NCBI GenBank assembly: GCA_001825335.1
Contig: MHWA01000004.1
Coordinates: forward strand, 35,341-99,340
DNA from: Candidatus Zambryskibacteria bacterium RIFCSPLOWO2_01_FULL_35_19
GTDB lineage: Bacteria; Patescibacteriota; Minisyncoccia; Phycocordibacterales; WO2-35-19
Length of the DNA: 64,000 nt
Direction of reading: 5' to 3'
Below the pieces are notes generated by a model. It ran no database searches, was not told the origin of the DNA, and worked only from the letters and a program-made list of their open reading frames with translations. Positions 2,189 to 33,127 of this stretch are shown here, piece after piece. How positions within the stretch are numbered: the stretch's first letter is position 1; each line of letters begins with the position of its first letter. A program made the translations under genes and the position numbers.

Positions 2189-2275
2189 GGAGAGTTGGCT
2201 GAGTGGTCGAAAGCGCCTCACTGCTAACGAGGTGTCCCCTTACCGGGACCGTGGGTTCGAATCCCACACTCTCCG
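2189..2275 (+). tRNA. tRNA-Ser (anticodon GCU), class II with long variable arm
   Basis: GGAGAGT acceptor pairs with ACTCTCC + discriminator G; anticodon loop CTGCTAA; variable arm GTCCCCTTACCGGGAC; T-arm TGGGTTCGAATCCCA; no encoded CCA. Confidence 0.85.
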
Positions 2276-2416
2276 CATTGACAATTTAGTATCGGCGTGT
2301 TCCTATTACTTGAGGCAAGTTAGCGGCCCGAGAGCTTCTGCAATCCACTAAAAAATATGCTAAAATACGTCTATGGTGATTGGATCTCAAAGCTTAAATC
2401 ACCCAAACATCATCAT

Positions 2417-15121: not shown

Positions 15122-15432
15122 GGATGTTCGGTTTGCAAATGGACTTTTTTATGAAGCTGCGCAACACTTTTTTATTTTAAAGAGCCAACTCTTACTCCAC
15201 TTCTATAAGTTTAACAAGTTCTGCAAATTTTGCATAAGTTTTCTACGAACAAGAAATCTTCTACTCTTAAGGAAGCAGTTTTTATTCTGTCATTATGTAT
15301 GCTCGTGCGCGTGAATTAACGTTCAACGTTGCACAGCAGTCATAAAATCCTAACTGTAAACAAGCTGTTAAAACCTAAAAAAGCTTTATTTTAAGGTCTA
15401 TAATATGAATCTAGTGTAAAATAGCGTAAATA

Positions 15433-16938: not shown

Positions 16939-16992
16939 TAATCAGAGAATACTACTTTTCAGATTCTATTACAATAATTTATGCCATCTGAA

Positions 16993-17295
16993 TCAACAGA
17001 GTTTATTATTTTCAAACATCCAGACGAATTCTTTCAGATTCTTACCCAAAATATAGTATCTAACGCCAGATTTTGTACCCATTCGTATTGGTTTTAGAAT
17101 ATGGCCATAGTAGTTTATGTATTTTATTGTAGTCTTGTAGCTCTTTCTCCAGTAAAAAATTTCTTTTTCGCATATCTGCCTTGCTGAATAGTATTCCGTA
17201 TCTACAGGATCAAACCTGTGCATTGGCTTGTAGGCCTCGCGCGTGCTCCCACGATCCTCGCTGGACTCATTATTTGTGTTTGTAATGGTATTCAT
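16993..17295 (-). CDS. hypothetical protein (100 aa)
   Basis: ORF immediately downstream of the recombinase; no recognisable motif. Confidence 0.3.
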   Translation of the reverse strand: MNTITNTNNESSEDRGSTREAYKPMHRFDPVDTEYYSARQICEKEIFYWRKSYKTTIKYINYYGHILKPIRMGTKSGVRYYILGKNLKEFVWMFENNKLC

Positions 17296-17300
17296 TATCT

Positions 17301-19061: not shown

Positions 19062-19650
19062 GATTTTTTTGCTGACAAATTTTCAGTATCTTTTCTGGAG
19101 TTGCAAACTCAATTTCTTTTGATTTTATTTTTATTAACTGCCTTATGAGATCTTCTTTGTTTAGAGATTCAATCTCTTTGATTAAATCCGCTAGTAAATA
19201 ATCTCGTAAATCTTCAATACTATTCATAGTTTCAGGAAGCCCTTATTTGTTATTTCTAAAATATGCTTTTAAATAAAGGTTTCCTAAATACTATTGTTAT
19301 AGGTGTGTATATATAAGTACATATACTTACACATTTCTTTTGTTAACAACTGATGCGGGCATTGGTGCGCTTTACAGAATCTAAGGCCTTTTTGAGTCGA
19401 AAAGAAAAAGCCCACTATATTTTGAATTTTCTTTGATTACGACGCTTCAGAGAGTCTTTTTCCATCTCAGCAAATACCCCTAACATTAGCAGAATATCCC
19501 TTCCAAAAAGTTTCTCTCGTTCAGCAGTGTCACTGTTTCTATCATTTAACACACGTGGATACATTGCCACGTTTTTGATATTTTTTGATTTCATAAATTT
19601 AGATTTTTTAAGTTTGTAAATTTTCAAAGTTTAATTTCACTGATTTTCTC

Positions 19651-20403
19651 CTATGATTCTGAATTCTTACTCCATTCGTAAGGCCCCAAAGCCAAAAATT
19701 GGGCAACTCGCTCCTCACTGGAGAAAAACCAAGCGACAGTTTGAGTTTCAGCAATTCCCTTCCAGTACTCGTTTTCCCTCACATTTTTGAGAGCACAGAC
19801 AAGCTCCTCTGGCCAATACTCGTTAAATCTTGCTTTGATATTTTCTTTAGCTTCTCTGGTCAATCTTTGTCCAGAACGGATTATGTTTGAATAAAGTGTA
19901 TACATTTTTTCTATTTTCTTTTCTATTGCTTTACTATCTATTGTGCTTGCATTTTGTTCATTACTTAACGCTTGCACTTCGTTCAAGGGGGTGGAGCCAC
20001 TTTTTTCTCCACCCGCCTGAACTTGTTGCAAGACTAGAGTATATTCGCTTGTCCACCCCTTGCGTTTCCTAATCGTGATGAACCCCTTATCTTCTAACTT
20101 ATGAAGTGACGTAACGACTTGTCTGTAGCTGAGACCTGTTCCAGTCCCGATCTTGCCACCGCCATTTGCTATTTGTTCTATGCTCATTGTGTCCGAGTTT
20201 TTCTGGAAGCCCCAGGTTCTGCGTAAGATAAACAAAAGCACTCGTGTTTCAGAGCCATTAAGCAGGTGCATGTATGAATCCAGGAGACGAGGAAACATCC
20301 AGAAATTTTTCTTCATTTCTGGAGGAAAGCCAGGAAATTGTTTGGGGTTGTCTTGCATATTTATTAATCTTCGTCCTTCCCATCCTCTTCTTCTGCGAGC
20401 CAA
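19651..20403 (-). CDS. winged-helix DNA-binding protein, phage replisome-organiser/initiator-like
   Basis: 250 aa; RVLLFILRRTWGF...MSIEQIANGGGKIGTGTGLSYRQVVTSLHKLEDKGFITIRK, which resembles the N-terminal domain of phage replication initiation proteins. Confidence 0.4.
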   Translation of the reverse strand: MARRRRGWEGRRLINMQDNPKQFPGFPPEMKKNFWMFPRLLDSYMHLLNGSETRVLLFILRRTWGFQKNSDTMSIEQIANGGGKIGTGTGLSYRQVVTSLHKLEDKGFITIRKRKGWTSEYTLVLQQVQAGGEKSGSTPLNEVQALSNEQNASTIDSKAIEKKIEKMYTLYSNIIRSGQRLTREAKENIKARFNEYWPEELVCALKNVRENEYWKGIAETQTVAWFFSSEERVAQFLALGPYEWSKNSES

Positions 20404-20693
20404 TCTCCAATTGTCATTATCTCTTCGTAGGAGTATGTGAATTTTAGATCAATCTCTCTGCCCTGAATGCGAAATACAATATTTGGACTACCCATATTTG
20501 TTAGAGAATCGTCCAAAAAAGATGGATAGAACGAAATATCAAGCCTTATGGGTTCAGTCATATGTTTGTCGTTGGTGGTATCCCATAGAATTTTGTTAAC
20601 AGCTACTACTACTTTTTCAGCAATTTCTTTAAACGAACTTTTATTAAATTCTTGTGACATTTTTTTGCCACCTTTCTTATTTGTTGTTGACAT
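20364..20693 (-). CDS. hypothetical protein (109 aa)
   Basis: Acidic C-terminus; overlaps the next gene's start by 40 nt, consistent with an operon. Confidence 0.3.
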   Translation of the reverse strand: MSTTNKKGGKKMSQEFNKSSFKEIAEKVVVAVNKILWDTTNDKHMTEPIRLDISFYPSFLDDSLTNMGSPNIVFRIQGREIDLKFTYSYEEIMTIGDWLAEEEDGKDED

Positions 20694-20763
20694 AATTTTA
20701 AATAATTCTTAAGAAGGAGTGTGGGAGCGGACTGACTATTGACCACCCCCAGTTCCTTTACGA

Positions 20764-21195
20764 TTACACTTTTCTATCTCTTGGGGGAACAGGAATGTTT
20801 TGAACTGATTTGTATGTGTTCTTGGTTTTCTTTTTTATCTGCTTTTTTGTCAAATAGCTTGTGTCATCTCTCATTGCCCAATATTCGTCTGGGTCATTGA
20901 AGTACATACTCGGTGTTCCCGCCTCAAACGCACCACTGGAATATTCCAAAGTGTATTTTGGATCATACGCCTTGCCGAAGCTGATTTGTCTGTTAAGCAC
21001 AAGTGGAAGTTTTTTCTTGGAAGGCAACAGTCTTATCCTCAGGATGATATCCCTGGGTATAATCTTGTCTCCTCCACTGAAAAACCCTCTTTTCTCCAAT
21101 TCTGTCGTAATCAACCATTCGGCATCATCTAACAAGTACCAGAGATATTTTTGGTCTTCTGGAAACTCTTTAATTTTTTTAATTTTGTAATTCAT
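20764..21195 (-). CDS. hypothetical protein (143 aa)
   Basis: ORF with plausible composition; no motif. Confidence 0.3.
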   Translation of the reverse strand: MNYKIKKIKEFPEDQKYLWYLLDDAEWLITTELEKRGFFSGGDKIIPRDIILRIRLLPSKKKLPLVLNRQISFGKAYDPKYTLEYSSGAFEAGTPSMYFNDPDEYWAMRDDTSYLTKKQIKKKTKNTYKSVQNIPVPPRDRKV

Positions 21196-21274
21196 AGATT
21201 TTATGCGGTCGGAACGCGGAGCACTTCTACAAAGTACTCCGCTCCTGCCACCGCAATTTATTTACTAACTCAAA

Positions 21275-21589
21275 CTACTCCAGTGGAATCTGGAACTGCG
21301 CCGTCTTTGTATGCTTGCGATAGTATCTAGAGGCCAACTCCATGATAGGAGTCTTGCCTCTAAGGTCCAGTTTGATCTGAGCTTCTTTGAGCTTCGCTGG
21401 TATTTTGCCGAATGCTTTCACTAGACTTGTGGCTATCTGGTTTGCTCCGTCTTCCAGTATGGCCGGCACTATTCCGTAACCTCTGGGCGGCATTGAGTTT
21501 TTGAATTGATATTTCATAACAATTCTTGTTTCTTGTTGGATTATTTTGTTCGCTTTGGAGAAGTATGCTAAACAAACGAGTAAAAGCAC
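21275..21589 (-). CDS. hypothetical protein (possible frameshift with overlapping ORF 21360..21653)
   Basis: Two overlapping reverse-strand ORFs in different frames; the downstream frame has the more protein-like sequence. Confidence 0.25.
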   Translation of the reverse strand: MLLLVCLAYFSKANKIIQQETRIVMKYQFKNSMPPRGYGIVPAILEDGANQIATSLVKAFGKIPAKLKEAQIKLDLRGKTPIMELASRYYRKHTKTAQFQIPLE

Positions 21590-22092
21590 CCGACAAAGAG
21601 TTGCCGGAACCGACCTCTTGCTTTTTTTGTTTGTTGCTCATTTTGACGAACAAAAAATCCGCTTATAATTTGCGGATGCAAGTGGTCAGCATTACGAGAT
21701 TCTGAAGCTGATGCAAACGCATCCTGTCTGAATCCCGTTGGGGCTGAGTCCTTAGTTGTAAGTTTACACTACCATAACCTCTAATTTTTACTTTATGGAA
21801 CCTGTGGATAACGATAAAATACAACACGAAACTTTTAATCTGCAAGACACCCAGATTGCCCGTTAAAAATAAAGCCATATAAAACCATTACTTATACCCC
21901 AAAATTCAGCAGCCGTGAACGCGCAGCCCGACGAAATGATGCTAGCCACCTACTCCTAGTCAGTGCCCAGAAAGGATGTGGCAGAGCAAAGCAGTGCCCA
22001 TTTTCTTAACTTTTCACTTTGAAAGTTGTAAACGAGTGAGGTTCGCACGGAAGCCATAATAAATGAGATTGATTGTCTCTCGCATCTTTTAT

Positions 22093-22614
22093 CTACTCAA
22101 ATTTATCAACAATTTTGTCCAGTTTGTCTGACGCTTCCAGTATCATATTCATAGACTGGTCATAGAGTTTAGAGTCATGTTTGTCTATTGCTCTTCTGTA
22201 AATCGGCATGGAATCTCTAAATAATTCAAAAGCTTGTAAAACTTCTTGATGTATAAGAATCAAGTCTTCAGGCGGAACAATGGCTTTAACTCTTTCGTAA
22301 GATTTTTCTATGATTAGTGTGTGTTTTGCCAACTCCGTCACATCCTTATTTGTCCAGTATTGTTGATACGATTGTAAAAGATTTCGTGCCTCCATTGAAT
22401 TAGTCACATCTTCATAAACACCAATCACTTGGTTGAAGTAAACGGAGGTGCTGTATTTGTTTGCTACATATTTATTATCAGATGGTAGAGACGAAGAAGG
22501 ATTTGATCCACCAGAAAAAGCTACATAAGCCCACAACATTAGAAGCACAAAAAATAAAATAGTCAAAAATCTTTGTGTCTTCTTTGTTTTCACCTCACCA
22601 TTTGTAGAATCCAT
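22093..22614 (-). CDS. hypothetical membrane-anchored protein (173 aa)
   Basis: N-terminal TM LTILFFVLLMLWAYVAF, then a soluble domain. Confidence 0.35.
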   Translation of the reverse strand: MDSTNGEVKTKKTQRFLTILFFVLLMLWAYVAFSGGSNPSSSLPSDNKYVANKYSTSVYFNQVIGVYEDVTNSMEARNLLQSYQQYWTNKDVTELAKHTLIIEKSYERVKAIVPPEDLILIHQEVLQAFELFRDSMPIYRRAIDKHDSKLYDQSMNMILEASDKLDKIVDKFE

Positions 22615-22968
22615 AAAATTTGAATTAAAAAAAACCTGCTACTAATGCAGGCGGCAAGACTCCGACAAAAAGCCCGCCACCAGGAAGGTCCGAAGACCTC
22701 TATAAGAGTTTCCCCTTATAACGTTGAGAACGCCCTGAATGACGGGTTGTTTGTTCTCAACGATTTTCGACCATGCCAGAGTTTGAAGCTACTGGTTTAG
22801 GTCTTTCGGACTATTTAGTTGTATTTATATAGTAATACTTGCCTCTCGTTAAGTAAACAAGTAATTTGAAAAGGCCTTATTATAAATTTATACAAAAAGG
22901 TATAATGACCTTACAAATCCATAGCCTAAACCGTTTTAGCGGCATGGCAAAAACCAACCACGAAATCC

Positions 22969-23994
22969 TCATTGAGGCCTAATTTGCGGTTGGGCGGTCG
23001 ATGAGGATTTTATATTATTCGCTTTTCCTTTAGTCCATTTTTTCGGCACTCTCCGATTCAGTTTTTGCAAGAGTTTAATCTTCAGATTTCTGGATCGGCA
23101 ATGAGAAAGGATTCCGTTATAAGAAGAAAAATTCTTATCTGTCGCTTTCCTTAGTATTCTCTTTTTGGTTTTGGTTCTCAAAATTCTGTAGCTAGGAAAA
23201 CAAACATAGCCAAGGTAATCAATGCCGCTTGAATAAGTTTTCAAGACTATCTTATCTGGATGGATTCTTAATTTTAAATTTTGCTCAGTGAAGTTTTGAA
23301 TTTTGGAAAGGCACAATTCCAAAAAACTTTTGTCTGTGTGCATAAGGATAAAATCATCAGCATATCTGATATATCCCTTGACTTTCAGTTCATGTTTCAC
23401 AAATTGATCAAGTTTATCCATGTAAATATTGGCAAAAATTTGAGAAGTGAGGTTACCAAGCGGTATGCCGGAACCAAAACTTTCCGTTATATCTTCAAAA
23501 AGTTTGATCAGTCTGCAATCAAAAGTCTCTTTTCTTAATATTTTAAGAAGTATTTCGTGGTCAACGGAATCAAAAAATTTCCTGATATCCAGCTTCAATA
23601 CCCACAATGTCCTGCTGTTATTACGAGAAAGCTTAAGTCCCATTTTATAAAGACGCTTAATGGCCCAGTGAGTGCCTTTGTATTTTCTGGAAGACCAAGA
23701 GTCAAAGATAAACTTCTTATCCCACATCTGCTCTATAACTCTGATTATTGCATGATGCAAAAGCCTGTCCCTGACGCTTGCCTTGTGAATATGCCTCTTT
23801 TTTGGATCATTAATGAAAAAGGAAAAATAACCGCCATGTTTATATACCCCATTTACCAAATCTTCATGCAATTTAAAAATATTGTCTTCAAGGTTAAGCT
23901 CAAATTCGGCGACATCCTTCTTTCTCCTTTTGTCCCTGCGAAACTCGGTCCATGCGTCGAACAAATTTTTTAGTGAAATAATTTTTTCAAACAT
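22969..23994 (-). CDS. DGR reverse transcriptase
   Basis: 341 aa; the N-terminus matches the DGR RT pattern (ELNLEDNIFKLHEDLVNGVYKHGGYFSFFINDPKKRHIHKASVRDRLLHHAI); IPLGNLTSQIFANIYM; catalytic IRYADDFILMH. Confidence 0.85.
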   Translation of the reverse strand: MFEKIISLKNLFDAWTEFRRDKRRKKDVAEFELNLEDNIFKLHEDLVNGVYKHGGYFSFFINDPKKRHIHKASVRDRLLHHAIIRVIEQMWDKKFIFDSWSSRKYKGTHWAIKRLYKMGLKLSRNNSRTLWVLKLDIRKFFDSVDHEILLKILRKETFDCRLIKLFEDITESFGSGIPLGNLTSQIFANIYMDKLDQFVKHELKVKGYIRYADDFILMHTDKSFLELCLSKIQNFTEQNLKLRIHPDKIVLKTYSSGIDYLGYVCFPSYRILRTKTKKRILRKATDKNFSSYNGILSHCRSRNLKIKLLQKLNRRVPKKWTKGKANNIKSSSTAQPQIRPQ

Positions 23995-23995
23995 A

Positions 23996-24376
23996 ATGAA
24001 TACAAAAAATGATATTAAAACCGCCGAACAAACTCCTCTGTTCCAAGCAGTCTATAAGCTGTATCTATCATGGTATGTCAGATGCAGCCAAATTCCAAAG
24101 AAAGATAGATTCACTATAGGCCAAAAGACAGAAAATCTGCTTTTGGAAATTCTAATTTTGGTAGTTACCGCCTACCATACGAACAATCCGGAATATAAAA
24201 GGCAATCTCTATCTAAAGCAAATACTCTGCTTGAATGCGTCAAAGTCACTATCCGGTTGGCCAAAGATGTTAAAGCTTTGGAACAGCGCTGGTATATTGA
24301 TTACCAAACCAGAATCCAGGAAATGGGTAAAATGCTCGGCGGGTGGATCTCTAGTACATGCAAAACGAACGGATAA
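23996..24376 (+). CDS. avd: Avd-like accessory variability determinant (four-helix-bundle family)
   Basis: 127 aa from the internal ATG of ORF 23882..24376. YLSWYVRCSQIPKKDRFTIGQKTENLL...EMGKMLGGWISS parallels phage BPP-1 Avd as I recall it (YLYPIAQSIPRKHGV...EVGRILGSWIAR). It is oriented divergently from the RT; its stop overlaps a hairpin plus T-run. Confidence 0.6.
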   Translation: MNTKNDIKTAEQTPLFQAVYKLYLSWYVRCSQIPKKDRFTIGQKTENLLLEILILVVTAYHTNNPEYKRQSLSKANTLLECVKVTIRLAKDVKALEQRWYIDYQTRIQEMGKMLGGWISSTCKTNG

Positions 24377-24410
24377 ATGTCCGTCCGTTTTTTCTTTACG
24401 AGAGTGACTT

Positions 24411-24528
24411 CGGAGGGAAACAACACCCAAATTGTCGTTGCGTTGCCCTGGGTTATTGTTGTTGACGTTGACGCCGTTGCGGTCAGCGTTGCCGAGATTC
24501 ACAAGCTTGCCGTTAGAGGAAAGGGTTG
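24411..24528 (-). repeat. DGR template repeat (TR)
   Basis: ~118 nt matching both VRs. All ~13-14 mismatches to each VR fall where the TR has T on the plus strand, which is A on the transcribed minus strand. It translates as ...NLGNADRNGVNVNNNNPGQRNDNLGVVSL, rich in AAC codons. A hairpin follows its 3' end at 24362-24391. Confidence 0.8.
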
Positions 24529-24825
24529 TTTTTGCGTCTCTCCATCCAGATCAGAGGCCTTAACCGGGCAGGCGCATCTTATAGGATGTAAGTAGCGCCT
24601 GTTGTGTAAAAATGTGGTGGCTGATTTAATCCGTCACCTAAGTGAATTTACATAAATCACCACTCCAGAGCGACGCAAGCAGTTCTTCTCTCATAATTCA
24701 ATGTTGGCGAGAATCATGACATGCACGATCCTTCATTAGCCATAAACATTATAGCACCTCAAAAAAATTGCGGCGAAGAAACCAAAGATTCAAAGAATAA
24801 ATATCAAAGTATCAAGAGAGAAAAA

Positions 24826-25809
24826 TCAGCGGAGGGAAACAACACCCAAATTGCCGTCGCGATGCCCTGGGTCATCGTCGTTGACGTCGACGCCGCTGCG
24901 GCCAGCGTCGCCGAGATCCACAAGCCTGCCGTCAGAGGAAAGGGTGTTAGACCAGTCATAGTTTGCTTCCAAAATGCCCCTTTCTTTCCTATTTCTAAAC
25001 TGCAAAACCCAGTCATACAATATTTCCGCCGGAATACGCCTATGGTTTTTATTTATCAAAAGTTCCGAAAGTTTCCTTGCCACTTCTTTCCAATTTTTAT
25101 CATAATCTTCGTCAAGCATTTTTTGGAGTCCTTCAAGAAGTTCGTCGGTACATTCTTCTTGTTCTTCCTTTGAAACGGAATCCAAACCCATAAGATAATC
25201 GCGTAACACCTTGGTTTGTTCTATATAATTTTTACTGGTGGAATCGGGCACAAAATTTTTGCCAACCAGTTTCCATTCGGTCCTTAAAGAAGCGTTTTTG
25301 AAAAAATCTTCAGTTTGATACCAGCCTATGTCGTAAAGCAATTTTTCCTGTTCTTCTTCGCTATCTTCCTCTAAAATTGCTTGCATGAGTCCATTCATTC
25401 TCTCCATAGTCATAGGAGATCCTTCTCCATCGCTTTCTACCCGTAGCACAAGCATTTCTCCGTTCCCCTTAGCTTTTTCAAGTATTTCAGGACTATATGG
25501 AATGGCTGGCACTTTTTCTTGAGGGAATTCAAATCTAAAAGTACTCTTTATTTCTTCAACTCCATAAAAACTATCGCTCATGATCTCTTGGGCTTGTTCA
25601 TAAGAAGTTTCAATTCCTTCACTTGTTTTTTTATTACCAACACCAAGTTCTTGTTTAAGTTTTATATATTTTTCTTTTATAGCCTTGAGTTCCTGGACGC
25701 TTAAAGAGTTAAGCTCTCGGCCTTTTTGGATGACAGTTATTTCTTCAACAATTTTAGAGCCGAGCTCGCTCTCTTTTTCGGGATTTGTGGTTTTAGGTGC
25801 ACCTTCCAT
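24826..25809 (-). CDS. DGR target protein 1 (short paralog, C-terminal variable module)
   Basis: 327 aa; the C-terminal ~150 aa are paralogous to target 2; ends ...DLGDAGRSGVDVNDDDPGHRDGNLGVVSLR. Confidence 0.7.
   Translation of the reverse strand: MEGAPKTTNPEKESELGSKIVEEITVIQKGRELNSLSVQELKAIKEKYIKLKQELGVGNKKTSEGIETSYEQAQEIMSDSFYGVEEIKSTFRFEFPQEKVPAIPYSPEILEKAKGNGEMLVLRVESDGEGSPMTMERMNGLMQAILEEDSEEEQEKLLYDIGWYQTEDFFKNASLRTEWKLVGKNFVPDSTSKNYIEQTKVLRDYLMGLDSVSKEEQEECTDELLEGLQKMLDEDYDKNWKEVARKLSELLINKNHRRIPAEILYDWVLQFRNRKERGILEANYDWSNTLSSDGRLVDLGDAGRSGVDVNDDDPGHRDGNLGVVSLR
24829..24946 (-). repeat. DGR variable repeat VR1
   Basis: Begins immediately 5' of the stop codon; differs from the TR only at TR adenines (Asn AAC becomes Asp, Ser or Gly). 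Confidence 0.8.
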
Positions 25810-25905
25810 ATTTTTGCTTATTTAAAGCCAGTATATCATAAAAATTTTCGCGGAAAAACCAAAGGAACAAAGGGAAAAGATCAAAGGTTCAATATGAGAA
25901 AAGAA

Positions 25906-28290
25906 CTAGCGGAGGGAAACAACACCCAAATAGTCGTAGCGTAGCCCTGGGTAATCGTTGTTGACGTCGACGCCGTCGCGGTCAGCGAGGCCGAGATCCA
26001 CAAGCTCGCCGTAAGAGGAAAGGGCTGCTGTCCAATCATAGGTCTTCTCCAAAATTCGCTCATTATTGCCCTTTATGGAGAGCAAGATGTCATAAAGGAC
26101 TTCTGGCGGCAGTCTCCTGTGATTTTTGTTCACGGTAAGCTCAGAGAGTCTTCTAGCCGCCTCCTGCCAGTCTGATTTCATAATTTCGTTAATTTCTTCA
26201 AGAACTTTATCGGAACATTCTTTGGCCTCATCTTCAGTCAGAGATCCCAGTGATATTAAATATTCGCGCAATATTTTTGTTTGCTCTATATAATTTGTGG
26301 ATCCTTCAGCTTTACCGCCATAAGAAGTAGTCACCGACTCAGGAAGAGGAGCTTTGGTTGTAAGCCTCCATTTCAAGCGAGGATGAGTATTTGGAATTGG
26401 CGTGCCATCTTTATTGATTCCGGTGTAAAACGGCTCATCTTTATACCAACAACTACTTTCTAACTTTGCTGCACCAGATTTATCTTGTCCATACAAAACC
26501 TTAATTTTTTCTCCAGTAGCAGGATCGATCAATTCAGGAATCATTTCAAGCATATGAGATATGGTAAGGAACTTACCTTCTGAGTCTTTATCAACTCCGA
26601 GTACAAGCATTTCTCCATTCTCCTTGGCCTTTTCAAGATCATCCGGCGAATATGGCATATCTGGAATATCTTCAAGAGCCACTTTGATACCAAAAGTCTT
26701 TTCAATTTTTTCAGGTCCCATATAGTCTTTGCCCAACATTTCTTTTGCTAATTCCATTTTTTTAAGCAAAGTATCAGGTGAAGTTCTTCTCTCCGGCTTT
26801 GATAGTTTACCACTGGCCTCAACTTCTGCTTTCAGTTTTTCAATATCTTTAATGAGCCCAGCCTTTTCTGGAGATATACCGGCAGTTTCTAAGCTTTTTC
26901 TTTTTGATTCTCCCGGCTTAGGTTTGTATTCCACTAATCTTATAAGCTCCCCGAGCTTTTTTCTGTCAGCGTCACTCTCCAATTTATTGGCGTAATAATA
27001 ACGGAGAGCTTGTTGCATGGTTTCGTTAATATCTCCATTATAAAATCTCAAAATAAAATCTCTGACTCTACGAGGTTCCATACGATCATCGTAAGTGAAA
27101 GGTTGAGGCTGATCTTCAGCAATTTTTCTATTTTTCAAAAGCTCTTTGGCCGCTTTATGAAATTCTTTAAATTTTTCCAAAACTTCAGGCAGTCCTTGAA
27201 TATCTTGGAGTTGCTCTGTTGTTAAACCTTCACCTCTGGCTCTGAGGAACATGTCAGGAGTTATATTTTGCGTTCCAGCTCCTATTCCAAAAAGGGCGTC
27301 TGTTGAAAATGAGAACGTGCCTTCTGGAAGTTCGGTTGGCAGTTTTTTGTAAACCCATCTTCGGAGTTGGGCAGGATCTAGTGGTTCACGACCAAAATAT
27401 CCTTTGCCTGGAGGGTTCATCAGGGCAATAATTTTGGTCTTCTCTTTATTCACAGCTACAGCTTCTGAAGCATCTTCAGACAATACGACATCTCCACCCC
27501 TTTCAAGAGAATCTAAAACTTCATGGAGACGAATGAGAATGTTTGGGGCTGAAGCGTTGAATTCGTCCAATATAATTATTTTTGTCTTGCCTTCTTCTTG
27601 CCTCAAACCGCTTGTTACTTTGCCGTCTGCAAAAATATATTCAGGATCTTCAGGTTTATTTTTGTGAGGATTGGGAATGTATCTCCCCATCAAATCTTCA
27701 ACATCAGTTGCCCCGTTGAGGTTCGCATAATGAATCTCCCAACCAAGTTCAGCTGCCATCTTTTTAACCGTTGTGGTTTTGCCTAGAGATGTTCCACCAT
27801 CAACAAGCAGAGGCTCACCGCTTACAAACGCCACAGCGATATCTCTTTGCAAAGGCAAAGCCACTTCTTTGTCATTTATAAAATCTTGGTATTGCTCTCT
27901 TCTTGGTATAAATTGACCATTACCATTTTTTGCTTTCTCCAAACCAACTCCAAGATAAGAAACGCTGCTTTCAGTTTCTTCAATAGAATTTTCAGTTATG
28001 GGAATAATCTCTACAAATAATTTACCGCTCATGGGATCCTCCGGATTGGTGTCTTCCACAACTCTAACCTTATACGGATATCCAGGCTCCGGTACTGGAG
28101 AAGATTTTGCCAAAATAATAATTTTCCTGCTTGGAGAACTGCTTTTATATTCCTTTTCGCCACTCTTTTTTTGCTGTTCTTCAAATATGACATCATCAAT
28201 AAAATTGCCCCCTTCTTGTGTCCCCACATTTTCTATTTTAGCCTTATTTTTAGGGTCAAAATTGATATTTTCCATTTCAGTGCTTGACAT
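25906..28290 (-). CDS. DGR target protein 2: MoxR/AAA_5-family ATPase fused to a DGR-diversified C-terminal module
   Basis: 794 aa; Walker A GGTSLGKTT; Walker B KIIILDEFNASAPNILIRLHEVLD (the DEFN matches MoxR DEINRA); sensor region IIALMNPPGKG...DPAQLRRW; the C-terminus ...DLGLADRDGVDVNNDYPGLRYDYLGVVSLR carries VR2. Confidence 0.75.
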   Translation of the reverse strand: MSSTEMENINFDPKNKAKIENVGTQEGGNFIDDVIFEEQQKKSGEKEYKSSSPSRKIIILAKSSPVPEPGYPYKVRVVEDTNPEDPMSGKLFVEIIPITENSIEETESSVSYLGVGLEKAKNGNGQFIPRREQYQDFINDKEVALPLQRDIAVAFVSGEPLLVDGGTSLGKTTTVKKMAAELGWEIHYANLNGATDVEDLMGRYIPNPHKNKPEDPEYIFADGKVTSGLRQEEGKTKIIILDEFNASAPNILIRLHEVLDSLERGGDVVLSEDASEAVAVNKEKTKIIALMNPPGKGYFGREPLDPAQLRRWVYKKLPTELPEGTFSFSTDALFGIGAGTQNITPDMFLRARGEGLTTEQLQDIQGLPEVLEKFKEFHKAAKELLKNRKIAEDQPQPFTYDDRMEPRRVRDFILRFYNGDINETMQQALRYYYANKLESDADRKKLGELIRLVEYKPKPGESKRKSLETAGISPEKAGLIKDIEKLKAEVEASGKLSKPERRTSPDTLLKKMELAKEMLGKDYMGPEKIEKTFGIKVALEDIPDMPYSPDDLEKAKENGEMLVLGVDKDSEGKFLTISHMLEMIPELIDPATGEKIKVLYGQDKSGAAKLESSCWYKDEPFYTGINKDGTPIPNTHPRLKWRLTTKAPLPESVTTSYGGKAEGSTNYIEQTKILREYLISLGSLTEDEAKECSDKVLEEINEIMKSDWQEAARRLSELTVNKNHRRLPPEVLYDILLSIKGNNERILEKTYDWTAALSSYGELVDLGLADRDGVDVNNDYPGLRYDYLGVVSLR
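25909..26026 (-). repeat. DGR variable repeat VR2
   Basis: Same structure as VR1; about 14 adenine-specific differences from the TR. Confidence 0.8.
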
Positions 28291-28494
28291 TATAACTCAT
28301 ATTTGCTATAATATACCCAGAATAGTTCTTTAAATTGTCTGGAAGGTTTTGAAAGAAGTACGACGGGACGCTGGCTAGCCATGCCAAACTCCCCCAAACA
28401 AAACGCGCCAGACCTAGCCACGGTCCGGGACGCACCCCAGCCTCTTTAAAAAGAAGGGGCTTTTTTTTATTTAAAAATGAAAATTTTTGAGTAT

Positions 28495-28902
28495 TCATGA
28501 TTGATATGCCGGACCGCAATTGGCTAATATATTCCAGCCTTTGTCTTGAAGTTTATTCAAATCTTCTTTCAAAACAAGAAAAATCACACAGCCATTGGTA
28601 TAGTCTGGAGAAAACGTTTTTGATTCCATCACGTTATTATCAAAAATTTCCACTTGGCCTGTAGGATACTGAATCAGGAAATCATAAAAATCTTTGCTCA
28701 TATTTTCGCCTGCAACAAGATATGTTTTGGCAGAATTAAATAGATCTGAAATATTATCTGATCGTTTGAATCCTTCGCTCTCCATTGCTCCCGAAAAATC
28801 GCTCAATTGATCTCTGTCTTGGGCTATAATTAGCCCCACTTCTTTTTGGCCAAAAGTTGCCTTAAGAAAATCGGTAAATTCTTTGTTTTCAGTTTCTTTC
28901 AT
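28495..28902 (-). CDS. hypothetical protein (135 aa) between the VWA and MoxR genes
   Basis: Plausible composition; no motif. Confidence 0.3.
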   Translation of the reverse strand: MKETENKEFTDFLKATFGQKEVGLIIAQDRDQLSDFSGAMESEGFKRSDNISDLFNSAKTYLVAGENMSKDFYDFLIQYPTGQVEIFDNNVMESKTFSPDYTNGCVIFLVLKEDLNKLQDKGWNILANCGPAYQS

Positions 28903-28916
28903 ACAGCTTATTTATA

Positions 28917-31202
28917 CTAAAAATTCTGATAATTGGCAATCACTTCTTTTATAAGGTCAGCCAACTTCTCAGCCATTTCTTCCACTTTAACATTTGCAAT
29001 GCTATTTGGATAATATCTGCCAACATGATCGGTCCCCCCACCTATACCCAAACCTATCAAACGAATATCGCTTTCTTCAAGCACTTGTTTGATCATTTTC
29101 CCAAGTTCATATTTTGTCCTCGGATGCATTGAGGATTCCTCAGGTGTGCCATCAGACATGACAATCAAAAATTTCTGATCGGCTTTTTGTTTCTCTAATC
29201 TTTTTGAGGCTTGCTCCAATGCCCAGCCGTCATCATTCCATCTGGCCTTCCCTGTATCGCTAGTATCGTTTACCTCTTGAAGCATGCCTCCCATATGCTC
29301 TCTTATAATTTTGGACATCTGCTCTCCAAAATCTTGATACTCATACATGCGATCATTAAATCCAAGTATTTCAAGATTTATAGATAAGCGGTTTAAAACT
29401 TCCGACAAAACAATAACGGCTTTGAAAGTTTCTTCTATTTTATTTCCGTTGGACATAGAACCGGAAAGATCAACCAATATGGAAATAGCGTAATCTTTTT
29501 CTTTTGGAAGTTCTCTTTTTTGCCAAGCTTTGCTCTCCATAGCCGGAACAGATTTGGCTTTCTCTTGAATCCTTCTTTTAATATCAATCCGCTTGCCGGT
29601 AGTGAAGCCGCTTTTCCAGCCTCTGGCTCTACGCTCGACGAATATCTCTCTCAAATCATTTTCAAGTTTGTCTATGAGCGGAAGGACTTCTTTTCTCATT
29701 CGTTCATAAACATTTTCGTCCTTTTTTAATTCTTTAGCTACTCTGTCTTTGTATTTTTTTAATTCTTCCTCATCAACTTCTTGTGTTTCTCTTCCGGTTT
29801 TTGTTTCTTGCTCAACTTCTTGTTTTGGCTTAACTTCGGCATCTCGTTCCGCCTTCTTTTCCGGATTATCAGAAAGTTTGCCTTGCAACTCTTCATTAAG
29901 AGCCTCCTCAAATTCTTTCATGGCTTTTTCAGCCTTATCTTTTATTTCTTTTTGCTCTCCTTCCGGGAGAGACTGGATATACTCTTTTATCTTTTGTTTT
30001 AAATCTTCAGAAAGAGAGTCTAAATCTATAGGTTTGGTTCCCGGGGATTGTTGTCCTTCCGTATCCTGTGGTTCACCTTCTCCAGCTGATTCGGAAGACT
30101 CTTCAGATTTTTCTCCTTTCTCTCCTTCAGCTTGTTGCTTTTCTTTCTCTGCTTTTTCTTTAGCCTCCTGTTGCTCCTTTTTGGCCTGTTCAATGGCTTT
30201 CTTTATGGCCTCCTCTAAAGCTTGCTGCTCTTCCGGAGTTAATTTATCTTTCAGTTCTTGTGGCATTCCTTTTTCTCCTTTTTCTTCGCCTCCGTCTTTT
30301 TCTTTCTGCATATCCTTTAACAATTCTTCCATTTTTTGATCTTCCATATCAGCTTCAACCAATTTTTTAAACTCTGGCCATATTTGATCTCGATTTATTT
30401 GATACGAAAGCTCGGCATATTTTCTGATCAACCCTTCGCTTTTGTCAGCCTCTTGTCTAGAAGGATATCTGAGCCAGGAATCTTGGGCCGATAACAGAGT
30501 CGCTTCAACTGCAGTTTTAACTTCCTCCGGCAAATCTGGAGACAATTCAAAATCTTGCTCTTTAGTTTCTCTAAACCATTGTTTAATATATTCAAATCCG
30601 GCCTGCATAAAGCGGGGCTTATATCCAAGTTTTTGCTCGGCTTTTTCTTTGGCCTTGGCTTCAAAATCCAAATCTTGTTCATAGGCCAAACCCATTTGTT
30701 CTCCAAATTTAGGATAACTTTCAGCCACAAAGTTATTGTCTCTTGGGTCTTCTATAGAATTCATCATGAAAGAAAACCCCGGTTGCTTCCATTCTTCCAA
30801 AGGAATAAAATCAGTCCGGCTGATTCTTCTGTGGCCGCCTTCATGAGAAATGACAAATCTTAAATAATCCATCGGTTTTTCCAAAAGATCTTTAGGATCA
30901 ATTCGTATTATGTTATTTTTAAAATCCCAATACCAACCGCCACCAGATTCATTAAGCTCAATTGGAATACGAAAATCTTTGCCTATGAAATACGCAAGAG
31001 AAGAGAGGGTCTGTTGTTTTTGTTTTATTTCTTCCTGCTGTTCAGGAGTAAACTCCGCAAGAATTTGTTTTTCTCTTTCTGGTTTCAGAGCTTTATATAT
31101 CTGCTCCGGCATTTCCGCAGTTTCGTTTTCAGGTATTTTGCCGTCTAATTTAATGCCCTCCATAAAATTGATTATAACTATATTGTGTCGCAAATTGGAC
31201 AA
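28917..31202 (-). CDS. DUF2201-like protein: N-terminal HExxH metallopeptidase-like domain, long K/E-rich coiled region, C-terminal VWA domain with MIDAS motif
   Basis: 761 aa; VISHEGGHRRISR (HExxH); VWA ISILVDLSGSM (DxSxS) ... LIVMSDGTPEE; this is the classic partner type of MoxR ATPases. Confidence 0.65.
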   Translation of the reverse strand: MSNLRHNIVIINFMEGIKLDGKIPENETAEMPEQIYKALKPEREKQILAEFTPEQQEEIKQKQQTLSSLAYFIGKDFRIPIELNESGGGWYWDFKNNIIRIDPKDLLEKPMDYLRFVISHEGGHRRISRTDFIPLEEWKQPGFSFMMNSIEDPRDNNFVAESYPKFGEQMGLAYEQDLDFEAKAKEKAEQKLGYKPRFMQAGFEYIKQWFRETKEQDFELSPDLPEEVKTAVEATLLSAQDSWLRYPSRQEADKSEGLIRKYAELSYQINRDQIWPEFKKLVEADMEDQKMEELLKDMQKEKDGGEEKGEKGMPQELKDKLTPEEQQALEEAIKKAIEQAKKEQQEAKEKAEKEKQQAEGEKGEKSEESSESAGEGEPQDTEGQQSPGTKPIDLDSLSEDLKQKIKEYIQSLPEGEQKEIKDKAEKAMKEFEEALNEELQGKLSDNPEKKAERDAEVKPKQEVEQETKTGRETQEVDEEELKKYKDRVAKELKKDENVYERMRKEVLPLIDKLENDLREIFVERRARGWKSGFTTGKRIDIKRRIQEKAKSVPAMESKAWQKRELPKEKDYAISILVDLSGSMSNGNKIEETFKAVIVLSEVLNRLSINLEILGFNDRMYEYQDFGEQMSKIIREHMGGMLQEVNDTSDTGKARWNDDGWALEQASKRLEKQKADQKFLIVMSDGTPEESSMHPRTKYELGKMIKQVLEESDIRLIGLGIGGGTDHVGRYYPNSIANVKVEEMAEKLADLIKEVIANYQNF

Positions 31203-31415
31203 TAAGACAAATATGGACTGATGCGGATTTAAGCGGTATTATTTATAGATAATTGAATAAGCCTAAACTTGCCAAGCCAAATTAGCAAGCATGGCGCAAA
31301 CCCAACCACGGCAGAGAACTCCTCGTTCAGGAGCACCGTGGTTGGTCCCATCCGGAAACGGGTGGTGGGTGGCGTAAGCCATCGCCTGGCGGGGAGTTTT
31401 CTGCCATCCCAAAAC

Positions 31416-32951
31416 TTAATATTGTTGTTTTGGTCTGTAAGAAATAGCTTCTAAAATATGGGAAGAAGAAATCTCAATGGAAGATTCTAGATCCGCAATG
31501 GTACGAGCCAACTTAATGATTTTGTGATAACTCCTAGCAGAAAGATCTAAAGTTTTTGCCGATCTGTTTAAAATCTCTTTTACTTCGTCTGATATTTTTA
31601 AAATGAGAGTAATATCTCTAGCATTCATTTCAGAGTTAGTAGATATTTTTCTACCAGCATTTTTGAATCTTTTTTCTTGAATATCTCTCGCCTTCATTAT
31701 TCTTTCCCTTGCTGGGATACTCTCACTCTTTTCGGCTTTCTCTGTTAATTTTTCATGATCTACCTTTGAAACTTCTGTCCATATATCTATACGATCTATT
31801 ATGGGTCCAGATATTTTTCTCTTGTATCTTTCAATTTGAAGCGGTGCGCAAGTACACGGTTTACCTTTTATTCCAAAATTTCCACACGGACAAGGATTCA
31901 TAGCGGCTACGAGTATGAAGTGCGCAGGAAACTTTACGGTGCCTTTGGCTCTTGAAACCGAAACAACCCTTTCTTCTAACGGCTCTCTCAAAGCTTCGAT
32001 TGCTTTATTTTCAAATTCTGGAAATTCGTCAACAAATAATATTCCCTTGTGGGCTAAAGTGACTTCCCCCGGCCTCGGATTAGTACCACCACCAATCAAA
32101 GCAACATAAGAGGCTGTGTGGTGAGGAGATCTAAAAGGTCTCTCTGCTACTAAACTATCATTCAAGGCGCCAGTCATAGAATGTATTTCTGTCACCTCTA
32201 AAGCTTCTTCAAATGAAAGTGGTGGTAGAATACCAGGCAGAGCTTTGGCGAGCATAGTTTTTCCTGTTCCAGGAGGTCCATAAAGAGCGATGTTGTGTCC
32301 GCCAGCCGCGGCTATCTCCAAAGCCCGTTTAGCTGATTCTTGACCTTTAATATCGGCAAGATCAAGAGAAATGTTATGCAAATTTTTTATCTCTTTTTTC
32401 TTTTCTTGTTTTAGCTTTTGGTTTATATCAGTATCATGGGCAACATGATTTATAATTTCCACCAAAGTTTCTGCTCCAAAAACAGCAATGCCGTCAACAA
32501 GAGCTGCTTCTGGAGCGTTTTCCACTGGTAGATATATTTCTCTGAAACCTTTTTCTTTTGCCTTACGAGCAAATGCTAAAGCTCCTTTTACGGATCGCAA
32601 ACCTCCGTCAAGTGAGAGCTCTCCAAGAAAAATTTTGTCTTTAGAATCAAACAGAATATCTCCGCTTGCTAACAAATATGACAAAGCAATAGCAACGTCT
32701 AAACCAGATCCTTCTTTTCTGACTTCAGCTGGTGCTAAAGATATAACAACTTTATGATTTTTTGACTTTGGGGATTCAAAACCAGAATTCTTAACAGCAG
32801 CGCTTATTCTATCTTTAGCTTCTTCAACGGCCTTATCACCTAGTCCAACTATTGAGAAAGAATTCAATCCTCTGGAAAGATCAGCCTCCACATCAACAAT
32901 ATATGGTTTGAGAAGTGAAGCTTGAGCACTGTGAACTTTAGCATATGACAT
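31416..32951 (-). CDS. comM: Mg-chelatase-like AAA+ ATPase ComM/YifB (intact copy, inside the element)
   Basis: 511 aa; N-terminal Lon-like domain; Walker A YGPPGTGKTMLAKAL; ILFVDEFPEF; Cys cluster MNPCPCGNFGIKGKPCTCA. Confidence 0.85.
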   Translation of the reverse strand: MSYAKVHSAQASLLKPYIVDVEADLSRGLNSFSIVGLGDKAVEEAKDRISAAVKNSGFESPKSKNHKVVISLAPAEVRKEGSGLDVAIALSYLLASGDILFDSKDKIFLGELSLDGGLRSVKGALAFARKAKEKGFREIYLPVENAPEAALVDGIAVFGAETLVEIINHVAHDTDINQKLKQEKKKEIKNLHNISLDLADIKGQESAKRALEIAAAGGHNIALYGPPGTGKTMLAKALPGILPPLSFEEALEVTEIHSMTGALNDSLVAERPFRSPHHTASYVALIGGGTNPRPGEVTLAHKGILFVDEFPEFENKAIEALREPLEERVVSVSRAKGTVKFPAHFILVAAMNPCPCGNFGIKGKPCTCAPLQIERYKRKISGPIIDRIDIWTEVSKVDHEKLTEKAEKSESIPARERIMKARDIQEKRFKNAGRKISTNSEMNARDITLILKISDEVKEILNRSAKTLDLSARSYHKIIKLARTIADLESSIEISSSHILEAISYRPKQQY

Positions 32952-33127
32952 ATTGTACTTTTATAATAACAAATTTTCTGAACACTTTTTCGCGAAGAAG
33001 CGGAGGCCTTCCTATACAGGCCATATACTGCCTCTTTTTTTTATTGCTTTTACAAACCGACCATCAATTTGTTCGTACCGCTAAACAGCATATACCCCTC
33101 TTTCCAAGCCGACTATTAGAAAGAGCA

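What the first reader, a model, noticed from the sequence alone, without database searches (positions are those of the whole stretch)
25906..31202. DGR-diversified MoxR-family AAA+ ATPase paired with a zincin-VWA (DUF2201-like) protein: a candidate programmable sensing or conflict module
The larger DGR target (794 aa) is a fusion. Its N-terminal half has a MoxR/AAA_5 Walker A (GGTSLGKTT), a Walker B DEFN that matches the MoxR DEINRA, and a sensor region. Its C-terminal module carries VR2.

The next gene but one (28917..31202) encodes an HExxH metallopeptidase-like N-domain, a long K/E-rich linker, and a C-terminal VWA domain with an intact DxSxS MIDAS motif. MoxR ATPases classically work with VWA partners. 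Here the ATPase itself appears to carry a hypervariable ligand-binding domain that the DGR rewrites.

A second, shorter paralog (24826..25809) has only the variable module with VR1. A 135-aa protein of unknown function sits between the ATPase and the VWA gene.

I know of no described system in which a MoxR ATPase is the direct DGR target. This could be a diversifying receptor-ATPase-VWA-protease machine, such as an NTP-dependent conflict or sensing system, carried on a mobile element.
Basis: inference. Interest (0 to 1): 0.9.

Follow-up and report, generated by a model that had tools for sequence, protein, structure and literature searches.

The report
DGR-diversified AAA ATPase with VWA-peptidase partner
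A candidate-phyla (Zambryskibacteria) mobile island carries a mutagenic retroelement that rewrites the ligand-binding tip of a MoxR/midasin-type ATPase, which is always encoded next to a metallopeptidase-VWA partner; the ATPase-as-target design was already published for these bacteria, and what this analysis adds is the conserved three-gene machine around it.

Summary
ORF 25906-28290 (794 aa) has a Pfam AAA_5 domain with intact Walker A/B and a C-terminal C-type-lectin/FGE-fold module ending in VR2. ORF 28917-31202 has an invariant HExxH gluzincin-like N-domain, an E/K-rich linker and a CobT/midasin-type VWA with DxSxS. A 135-aa orphan lies between them, and a 327-aa lectin-only paralogue carries VR1.

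RT, bAvd and TR are present. All 12-13 TR/VR differences per VR fall on TR adenines (P about 1e-9).

The order VWA, 135-aa gene, AAA is adjacent in 56 of 66 species-level Patescibacteria loci. An RT lies in cis in 26 of 39 loci with enough flank. The pairing is therefore not incidental.

The cassette sits on an ~18-kb serine-recombinase island inserted into comM.

The novelty claim fails. AAA(midasin-like)-fused targets are reported as the commonest CPR DGR target architecture (Paul 2017, via PMC10907252; Wu 2018, PMC5758913). MoxR plus metallopeptidase-VWA pairs and DGR-linked MoxR-VWA conflict systems are also described.

Most likely it is a cytoplasmic MoxR-VWA remodelling or protease machine with a DGR-reprogrammable recognition head. 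Its biological role (conflict or host interaction) is inferred, not shown.

The parts
28917..31202 (-). Zincin-linker-VWA partner gene. The maximal ORF is 761 aa; the public gene call is 748 aa starting at 31163.
   Evidence: Pfam CobT_C 5e-18 and VWA 2.7e-7. PDB profile hits to CobT VWA (1.7e-13) and to midasin D/E-linker plus MIDAS (4e-8). At least 594 homologue clusters of about 700-770 aa.
30303..31163 (-). N-terminal gluzincin-like domain. HEGGH lies at 30831-30845, followed by an invariant E-D (IEDPRDNNF).
29703..30332 (-). E/K-rich low-complexity linker (residues 291-500).
   Evidence: 58% K/E/Q/D. Length is variable among homologues. It aligns to the midasin D/E-rich region.
28941..29486 (-). 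VWA domain with MIDAS DLSGS (29457-29471) and SDG.
   Evidence: The strict DxSxS pattern is present in 55/62 partner genes.
28495..28902 (-). p135, a 135-aa orphan protein and third conserved member of the operon.
   Evidence: Present in 64/67 loci between the VWA and AAA genes. No Pfam, PHROG, NCBIfam, PADLOC or PDB match. About 250 clusters at 50% identity among 1.84 billion proteins; the listed best 150 are stand-alone, mostly ~115-157 aa with a few shorter fragments. Invariant YDF..QYP motif.
25906..28290 (-). AAA_5 ATPase fused to a C-terminal CLec variable module (794 aa); the main DGR target.
   Evidence: 100% identical to OHB02342.1 from Candidatus Zambryskibacteria. At least 415 homologue clusters, with PF07728 precomputed for all 120 listed.
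27358..27795 (-). AAA_5 core. Walker A is at 27772-27798 and Walker B at 27556-27573.
   Evidence: Pfam AAA_5 46.6 bits. PDB profile hits to midasin AAA modules (1e-22), NorQ and CobS. Motifs are invariant.
26881..27333 (-). Highly conserved helical region after the AAA core (DQPQPFTYDDRMEPRRV ... YYYANKLES).
   Evidence: Many invariant columns between residues 376 and 438. Its function is unknown; a lid or partner-docking surface is inference.
25909..26748 (-). C-terminal C-type-lectin/FGE-fold variable module (residues 515-794).
25910..26023 (-). VR2.
   Evidence: 12/12 differences from TR fall at TR adenines. Near-identical proteins from other samples differ only at residue 768 inside VR2.
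24826..25809 (-). Second target: a 327-aa CLec-only paralogue.
   Evidence: 49% identical to the C-terminal module of the ATPase. Extra CLec-only targets occur in many related loci.
24830..24943 (-). VR1.
   Evidence: 13/13 differences from TR fall at TR adenines.
24411..24524 (-). Template repeat (TR), rich in AAC/AAT codons.
23882..24376 (+). bAvd accessory gene, with a probable start at 23996, divergent from the RT.
   Evidence: Pfam bAvd 5.3e-17.
22969..23994 (-). DGR reverse transcriptase (341 aa).
   Evidence: RVT_1 9e-26. The translation shows LGNLTSQIFANIY and YADD motifs. PADLOC RT 3e-46.
15126..33116 (.). An ~18-kb integrative island inserted into the resident comM. It carries its own intact comM (31416-32951), the whole cassette, a large serine recombinase (17301-19061), a RepO-like gene (19651-20403) and a Schlafen AlbA_2/HATPase_c_4 gene (15433-16938).
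   Evidence: A second comM is split: residues 1-307 at 34037-33117 and residues 306-511 at 15125-14505.

Best explanation
This is a CPR-type diversity-generating retroelement (RT, inverted bAvd, TR). Its main target is a cytoplasmic MoxR-clade AAA_5 ATPase, closest to midasin, NorQ and CobS, that carries a C-terminal C-type-lectin/FGE-fold domain. The ligand-binding surface of that domain is rewritten by adenine mutagenesis.

The ATPase is one subunit of a conserved three-gene machine. The other two are a partner protein (gluzincin-like HExxH domain, long E/K-rich tether, MIDAS-containing VWA domain) and a 135-aa orphan protein.

By analogy with midasin, CbbQ-CbbO, NorQ-NorD and CobS-CobT, I propose the following. 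The ATPase forms a ring. The VWA/MIDAS partner docks on it. The variable lectin heads capture a ligand that can be re-specified by the DGR. ATP hydrolysis then remodels the captured protein, or the partner, so that the tethered metallopeptidase acts on it. A free lectin-only paralogue is diversified from the same TR.

Shown: the domains, the conserved catalytic motifs, the synteny, the A-specific mutagenesis and the island context.

Inferred: ring formation, AAA-VWA docking, peptidase activity, and the biological role. I think the role is most likely recognition of changing foreign or host proteins, that is, conflict or sensing.
For: - Domain and fold assignments.
- Catalytic motifs are conserved across the family: Walker A/B, sensor and Arg; HExxH in 61/62 partners and MIDAS in 55/62.
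- The operon VWA > p135 > AAA is adjacent in 56/66 species-representative loci, and 7 more loci have all three genes with one inserted gene or a changed order.
- An RT is in cis in 26/39 loci with at least 5 kb downstream.
- The lectin tail appears interchangeable. At least three C-terminal types (LGVVSLR, GFRVAVVL, GCRLSR) occur on the same AAA scaffold, and a few loci lack it altogether (L016, L065). This suggests the AAA-VWA-p135 core is the machine and the lectin is its specificity module.
- TR/VR differences occur only at adenines, and near-identical strains differ only inside VR2.
- No TM segment or signal peptide in any of the four proteins.
- The literature already proposes the ATPase as a transducer for CPR AAA-CLec targets (PMC10907252) and describes MoxR plus metallopeptidase-vWA pairs (PMC7824862).
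Against: - No experiment or complex model links the three proteins; co-operonic conservation is the only evidence of interaction.
- 13/39 informative loci have no RT in cis, so the machine does not strictly need a neighbouring DGR.
- No defence-system HMM fits.
- p135 is entirely uncharacterised.
- The crude hydropathy test cannot exclude non-classical export, which the host-attachment hypothesis would need.
Confidence: 0.6

Rival explanations
1. Host-attachment or episymbiosis tool. The diversified lectin proteins are exported or displayed to bind changing host-cell surface molecules. The MoxR-VWA-zincin genes act as an assembly or maturation chaperone for them, as MoxR-vWA does for the ATV virus tail.
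For: - CPR and DPANN DGRs have been proposed to mediate interactions with the host cell (PMC10907252, citing Paul 2017).
- MoxR-vWA pairs are known assembly chaperones (PMC7824862; PMC7159879).
- A free lectin-only paralogue exists.
Against: - No signal peptide or TM segment in any of the four proteins.
- The lectin domain is covalently fused to the ATPase in hundreds of homologues, which is odd for a chaperone-client relationship.
Confidence: 0.15
2. Mobile-element or phage-derived module that serves the element itself, for example virion or particle assembly with proteolytic processing, or anti-defence, rather than the cell.
For: - It sits on an integrative island with a serine recombinase and a RepO-like gene.
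- Serine recombinases lie near the module in 8/67 loci.
- The partner's N-domain and VWA resemble phage CobT-like proteins.
- Jumbo phages carry MoxR plus metallopeptidase-vWA pairs.
Against: - Only 3 relatives among 2.9 million IMG/VR contigs, against 66 in species-representative genomes.
- No close relative in 50,697 cultured-phage records.
- No virion structural genes were recognised on the 18-kb island.
- Apart from the cassette genes, no neighbouring gene family recurs in more than 8 loci.
Confidence: 0.12
3. Housekeeping CobS/CobT-type chelatase or cofactor-insertion chaperone that merely lies beside a DGR.
For: Pfam CobT_C, a weak NCBIfam CobS hit, and PDB CobT/CobS hits.
Against: - VR2 lies inside the ATPase gene itself.
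- The CobS equivalog scores 16.7 bits against a cut-off of 558.
- The partner has a peptidase-like N-domain that Pfam CobT_C does not cover (best stretch 650-754 only).
- The genes lie on a mobile island.
Confidence: 0.03

Closest known systems
CPR DGR targets with an N-terminal AAA/midasin-like ATPase (Paul et al. 2017 as cited in PMC10907252; 'UVR4' and category g1 of Wu et al. 2018, PMC5758913)
   Same: Same lineage (Parcubacteria/Zambryskibacteria). Same architecture, with an AAA_5 N-terminus and the VR at the extreme C-terminus. Same inverted-avd cassette. Near-identical proteins have been in GenBank since 2015.
   Different: Wu et al. could not tell which fold holds the VR. Here it is a TvpA/FGE-type CLec fold. 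I found no accessible description of the conserved zincin-VWA and 135-aa partners. Paul 2017 could not be read, so this may already be in print.
VMAP-type MoxR-vWA ternary conflict systems coupled to DGRs (Kaur et al. 2020, PMC7159879; Dore et al. 2024, PMC10907252)
   Same: A MoxR-clade ATPase, a vWA/MIDAS protein and a third component. A DGR-diversified CLec/FGS domain acts as the proposed sensor or effector. Peptidase domains are sometimes fused to the vWA protein.
   Different: In those systems the lectin is fused to the vWA protein; here it is fused to the ATPase. No VMAP domain is present, and p135 has no match. Those systems come from multicellular cyanobacteria and proteobacteria with clade-5 RTs; this one is from CPR.
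Phage MoxR plus metallopeptidase-vWA pairs and phage 'CobS/CobT-like' genes (Iyer et al. 2021, PMC7824862; phrog_249, phrog_17276, phrog_1576)
   Same: A two-gene AAA_5 plus (N-domain)-linker-VWA architecture. The N-domain fold matches phage CobT-like proteins.
   Different: Sequence similarity outside the VWA is negligible. The phage pairs have no lectin domain, no DGR and no p135.
Midasin/Rea1, CbbQ-CbbO, NorQ-NorD, CobS-CobT (MoxR-VWA remodelling machines)
   Same: These are the best PDB sequence matches for both proteins. They include the midasin D/E-rich linker plus MIDAS.
   Different: Those machines act on fixed clients such as pre-60S factors, Rubisco, NO reductase and CobN. Here the client-binding head is hypervariable and a peptidase-like domain is attached.

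Membership tests
Diversity-generating retroelement (DGR) | Reverse transcriptase of the DGR type | tested here: met
   RVT_1 9e-26. The translation shows LGNLTSQIFANIY and YADD.
Diversity-generating retroelement (DGR) | TR/VR repeat pair whose differences fall on TR adenines | tested here: met
   13/13 and 12/12 mismatches at adenines over 114 nt, P about 1e-9.
Diversity-generating retroelement (DGR) | Avd-type accessory protein | tested here: met
   Pfam bAvd 62.7 bits against a cut-off of 40.
Diversity-generating retroelement (DGR) | VR located in a C-type-lectin (or Ig) fold at the C-terminus of the target | tested here: met
Diversity-generating retroelement (DGR) | Ongoing diversification in populations | tested here: inconclusive
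   Otherwise identical proteins from other samples differ only at residue 768 in VR2, and 95%-identical ones have mismatches concentrated in the VR. No read-level data were available.
MoxR-clade AAA+ (AAA_5: midasin/CbbQ-NorQ/CobS group) | AAA_5 profile match above the curated cut-off, with Walker A, Walker B, sensor 1 and Arg finger | tested here: met
   46.6 bits against a cut-off of 22. Motifs are invariant. PDB hits to midasin, NorQ and CobS.
MoxR-clade AAA+ (AAA_5: midasin/CbbQ-NorQ/CobS group) | Helix-2 insert and pre-sensor-1 hairpin; hexameric ring | not tested
No model of the AAA core was made.
MoxR-clade AAA+ (AAA_5: midasin/CbbQ-NorQ/CobS group) | Genetically linked VWA/MIDAS partner | tested here: met
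   A VWA gene lies two genes upstream, and the arrangement is adjacent in 56/66 loci.
MoxR proper (Pfam AAA_3) / bpMoxR | Match to AAA_3 or bpMoxR profiles | tested here: not met
   Neither family was listed for the 794-aa protein at E <= 0.01.
VMAP ternary conflict system | A VMAP (vWA-MoxR-associated) protein with its conserved domains | tested here: not met
   The third gene, p135, has no Pfam match even at E <= 10. No other conserved neighbour was found.
VMAP ternary conflict system | DGR-diversified lectin/FGS fused to the vWA component | tested here: not met
   The lectin is fused to the ATPase. The VWA protein has no VR.
DUF2201 (zincin plus VWA-like) family | Match to the DUF2201 family profiles (accessions from memory: PF13203 and PF09967) | tested here: not met
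   No such hit was listed, even when matches up to E = 10 were requested for the N-domain and up to 0.01 for the whole protein.
Zincin/gluzincin metallopeptidase | HExxH on an active-site helix after a mixed beta-sheet, with a downstream Glu/Asp third ligand | tested here: inconclusive
Aerobic cobaltochelatase CobS/CobT | Equivalog-level match to CobS/CobT | tested here: not met
   TIGR01650 scores 16.7 bits against a cut-off of 558.55, and there is no NCBIfam hit for the VWA protein.

The most novel reading that the evidence does not exclude
The operon encodes an intracellular, re-programmable degradation or remodelling machine. The DGR-diversified lectin head on each ATPase subunit would act as an evolvable substrate adaptor. 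It would capture new protein targets, such as phage, host or rival-element proteins, and present them to a MoxR ring and a tethered metallopeptidase. That would be an antibody-like, anticipatory proteolytic immunity in genome-reduced CPR bacteria. The 135-aa orphan would be an obligatory regulator, and the whole unit would spread on comM-targeting islands.
Probability: 0.18. Interest if true: 0.8.

Novelty: new member of a known kind. Interest (0 to 1): 0.4.

Why it matters
What the very abundant DGRs of CPR bacteria are for is an open question, and their commonest target class has no assigned function.

This analysis shows that the class is one subunit of a conserved MoxR-VWA-zincin-p135 operon with intact catalytic motifs. 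That turns a 'hypothetical variable protein' into a concrete, testable machine:
- Does the ATPase bind the VWA partner?
- Is the HExxH domain a peptidase?
- What do the variable lectin heads bind?

It also links the CPR systems mechanistically to the DGR-coupled MoxR-vWA conflict systems of multicellular bacteria, although the sensor sits on the other subunit.

It does not overturn anything.

Tried and rejected
- Paul et al. 2017 could not be read. Whether it already reports the VWA neighbour is unknown.
- The Wu 2018 supplements are not held.
- The afdb50 fold library was unavailable.
- PADLOC gave only a weak AAA-level hit (mad8, 8.7e-5) and nothing for the VWA protein or p135.
- NCBIfam gave nothing usable.
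- p135 had no Pfam, PHROG or PDB-profile match. The best was a de novo 'Rossmann 2x3' design at E = 0.13. No fused relatives appeared in a 1.84-billion-protein scan.
- Cultured phages matched only on the VWA and AAA cores at 23-31% identity.
- I looked for hairpin or cruciform elements downstream of the VRs. The folds are no better than shuffles, with z of -1.05 and -0.40.
- ComM adjacency as a functional link is rejected. ComM is absent from all 66 related loci and is here the integration target.
- Chance or duplication as the origin of the TR/VR similarity is rejected by the adenine-only pattern.
Full report
**Observation**

The 794-aa ORF (25906-28290):
- It matches Pfam AAA_5 at 46.6 bits against a cut-off of 22, over residues 166-311.
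- Walker A GGTSLGKTT is at residue 165 and Walker B ILDEFN at 240. The NPPGKG sensor and DPAQLRRW arginines follow.
- These motifs are invariant in an alignment of 24 homologues and are retained in most of the 57 related ATPase ORFs that carry the Walker A motif: Walker B in 53, the sensor motif in 48, DPAQLRR in 50.
- A profile of the family finds the AAA modules of midasin as the closest solved relatives (E = 1e-22), then NorQ and CobS.
- It is therefore a MoxR-clade AAA_5 ATPase in the broad sense. It is not MoxR proper (no AAA_3 hit) and not a CobS equivalog (16.7 bits against 558).

The 761-aa ORF (28917-31202; public calls start at 31163 and give 748 aa):
- Its C-terminal VWA domain matches CobT_C (5e-18) and VWA. 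It has DLSGS at residue 578 and SDG.
- The linker, residues 291-500, is 58% K/E/Q/D.
- Its N-domain has an invariant HEGGH and a downstream invariant E-D.
- Its profile matches the CobT VWA (1.7e-13) and the D/E-rich linker plus MIDAS of midasin (4e-8) among solved structures.

**The DGR**

- RT (RVT_1, 9e-26) lies at 22969-23994. An inverted bAvd (62.7 bits) lies at 23882-24376.
- A three-copy repeat is present.
- Over a 114-nt core, TR is 24411-24524, VR1 is 24830-24943 and VR2 is 25910-26023. VR1 differs from TR at 13 positions and VR2 at 12.
- Every one of those positions is an adenine in TR, which has 29 A in 114 nt. P = 1.6e-9 and 9.4e-9.
- TR is full of AAC/AAT codons.
- Proteins from other samples that are otherwise identical over 789-794 residues differ only at residue 768, inside VR2. 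Relatives about 95% identical concentrate their differences in the last 35 residues. This fits recent DGR activity, although I have no read-level data.

**Folds**

C-terminal module of the ATPase (residues 515-794):
- With a 24-sequence alignment it modelled at pLDDT 94.6.
- The VR module is therefore a CLec/FGE fold. Wu et al. 2018 left this open for this class.

N-domain of the VWA protein:
- It modelled at pLDDT 80. Its order of elements is backing helix, three short strands, HExxH helix, then a helix ending at the invariant E-D. That is the zincin topology.
- Against viral models, the best matches are the N-terminal parts of phage 'CobT/VWFA' proteins of 580-810 aa (E 3.8e-4, TM 0.51). Weaker hits go to 'metallopeptidase domain', 'lethal factor' and SprT-like proteins.
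- I call the zincin assignment probable, not proven.
- No Pfam family, DUF2201 included, matches this domain.

**Is the pairing incidental?**

No.
- The ATPase family has at least 415 clusters at 90% identity; all 120 listed carry AAA_5, are 453-789 aa (mostly ~640-790), and every source name that gives a taxon is Patescibacteria/CPR.
- A scan of one genome per species returned 66 loci.
- tblastn with the window's proteins shows the order VWA-zincin, p135, AAA, co-directional and adjacent, in 56 of the 66 loci.
- Seven more loci have all three genes with one inserted gene or a changed order; in four of them the insert is an extra lectin-only target.
- Three loci lack a component: one is cut by a contig end and two lack p135.
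- All-against-all clustering of every ORF in these loci found no other gene family shared by more than 8 loci. The cassette genes were the exceptions: RT in 35 loci and Avd in 30.
- Among the 39 loci with a complete ATPase gene and at least 5 kb downstream, 26 have an RT and 28 have an RT or Avd.
Even there the ATPase usually keeps a lectin-type tail ending in GFRxxVV or LGVxxSR.
- The lectin tail comes in at least three sequence types on the same ATPase scaffold. A few ATPases lack it (L016, 453 aa; L065, 484 aa) or carry something else (L032, 1159 aa).
- My reading is that AAA-VWA-p135 is the core machine and the lectin is an exchangeable specificity module that the DGR tunes.

**p135**

- It has no match in Pfam, PHROGs, NCBIfam, PADLOC or the PDB.
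- Its relatives number about 250 clusters at 50% identity among 1.84 billion proteins. The best 150 listed are stand-alone proteins, mostly ~115-157 aa with a few shorter fragments.
- It has a conserved YDF..QYPTGQ motif.
- Its role is unknown. It takes the place that a VMAP protein has in the ternary systems, but it is not one.

**Location**

- None of the four proteins has a hydrophobic stretch that could be a signal peptide or TM helix. The maximum Kyte-Doolittle 19-residue mean is 1.41.
- The cassette is on a mobile island. A second comM gene, 90% identical in protein to the intact copy at 31416-32951, is split exactly in two: residues 1-307 at 34037-33117 and residues 306-511 at 15125-14505. 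The junction is at the Walker B codons.
- The ~18 kb in between carries the intact comM copy, the whole cassette, a large serine recombinase (17301-19061), a RepO-like initiator (19651-20403) and a Schlafen AlbA_2/HATPase_c_4 protein (15433-16938).
- ComM is absent from all 66 related loci, so its adjacency here is positional and not functional.
- Relatives of the cassette are rare in viral collections: 3 loci in IMG/VR. Cultured-phage records match only at 23-31% identity on the VWA or AAA cores.

**Mechanism (inference)**

Both proteins' nearest characterised relatives are MoxR-VWA remodelling machines: midasin, CbbQ-CbbO, NorQ-NorD and CobS-CobT.
- In these, a ring ATPase works with a MIDAS-bearing partner that grips an acidic residue of the client. 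This is established knowledge of those families and is summarised in PMC7159879.
- The pair here looks like a split mini-midasin. It has an AAA_5 ring subunit, and a partner with an acidic/basic tether and MIDAS.
- It has two additions: a hypervariable lectin head on the ATPase and a zincin-like domain on the partner.
- I propose that the lectin heads capture a ligand whose identity the DGR can change. The ring would then remodel it, or the partner, so that the tethered peptidase acts.
- The biological role is open. It could be recognition of phage or host proteins, that is, conflict, sensing or host interaction.
- The island context and the neighbouring Schlafen-type gene lean weakly towards conflict.

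**Comparison with the literature**

- Dore et al. 2024 state, citing Paul et al. [quoted passage not shown] They suggest the ATPase transduces signals detected by the C-terminal region.
- Wu et al. 2018 report that CPR 'UVR4' targets match the Midasin AAA-ATPase domain.
- Kaur et al. 2020 and Dore et al. 2024 describe DGR-coupled MoxR-vWA-VMAP systems, in which the lectin sits on the vWA protein.
- Iyer et al. 2021 describe MoxR plus metallopeptidase-vWA pairs in jumbo phages.
- I did not find in accessible text the conserved triad around the CPR AAA-CLec targets, the fold assignment of their VR module, or the comM-island context. I could not read Paul et al. 2017, so even these points may be published.

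**Verdict**

It is a new member of a known kind with a useful, modestly new system-level description. Interest 0.4.

Noticed in passing
window 14505-15125, 31416-32951, 33117-34037: comM (Mg-chelatase-like YifB) is present three times. There is one intact copy, plus the two halves of a second copy (90% aa, 79% nt identity) split at codon 306/307 by ~18 kb. This indicates an integrative island that targets comM and brings its own replacement comM.
   Followed up: yes
window 31260-31383 (+) and 22685-22803 (-); also L007 7158-7281, L020 1-108, L048 16170-16289, L063 1837-1956 and 15359-15479: Two copies of the Rfam LOOT RNA motif (RF03000, 77 and 73 bits) bracket the VWA-to-RT cassette in inverted orientation. 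One is about 60 nt upstream of the VWA gene and the other about 170 nt downstream of the RT. The two window copies differ at many aligned positions within regions that the RNAalifold consensus later used for model R1 pairs as stems. A covariance model found LOOT close to a DGR RT (within ~100 nt to ~1.3 kb) or flanking the cassette in only 4 of the other 69 sources, and orientation relative to the RT varies.
   Followed up: partly
window 15433-16938 (-): A 501-aa protein with Schlafen AlbA_2 and HATPase_c_4 domains sits at the other end of the island. It may be a second accessory or defence-type cargo gene.
   Followed up: no
window 24759-24815 and 25836-25892: A 57-nt stretch just downstream of both VRs is conserved (74%) between the two targets. 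It does not fold better than shuffled sequence, so it is not an obvious DGR cruciform element.
   Followed up: partly
L001-L066 (e.g. L046 9947-11890, L038 9950-11977, L016 9974-11335, L032 9998-13477): The same AAA_5 scaffold carries at least three different lectin-type C-termini (LGVVSLR, GFRVAVVL, GCRLSRSF). In some loci it carries none, or an unrelated 500-aa extension. This implies domain swapping at the ATPase C-terminus.
   Followed up: partly
L004 10001-14667; L057 8489-13298: Some genomes have two tandem p135 plus AAA-CLec units behind a single VWA-zincin gene.
   Followed up: no
window 9046-9459 (+) and 2189-2276 (+): A tmRNA gene (tag ANKVVAKAKTVVSPYFGVGDFAFAYVRA) and a tRNA-Ser(GCT) lie outside the island. 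They are ordinary chromosomal markers.
   Followed up: no
window 22923-23011 (+): A weak third LOOT-like match (22 bits, E 0.003) overlaps the 3' end of the RT gene on the opposite strand. It is probably chance.
   Followed up: no
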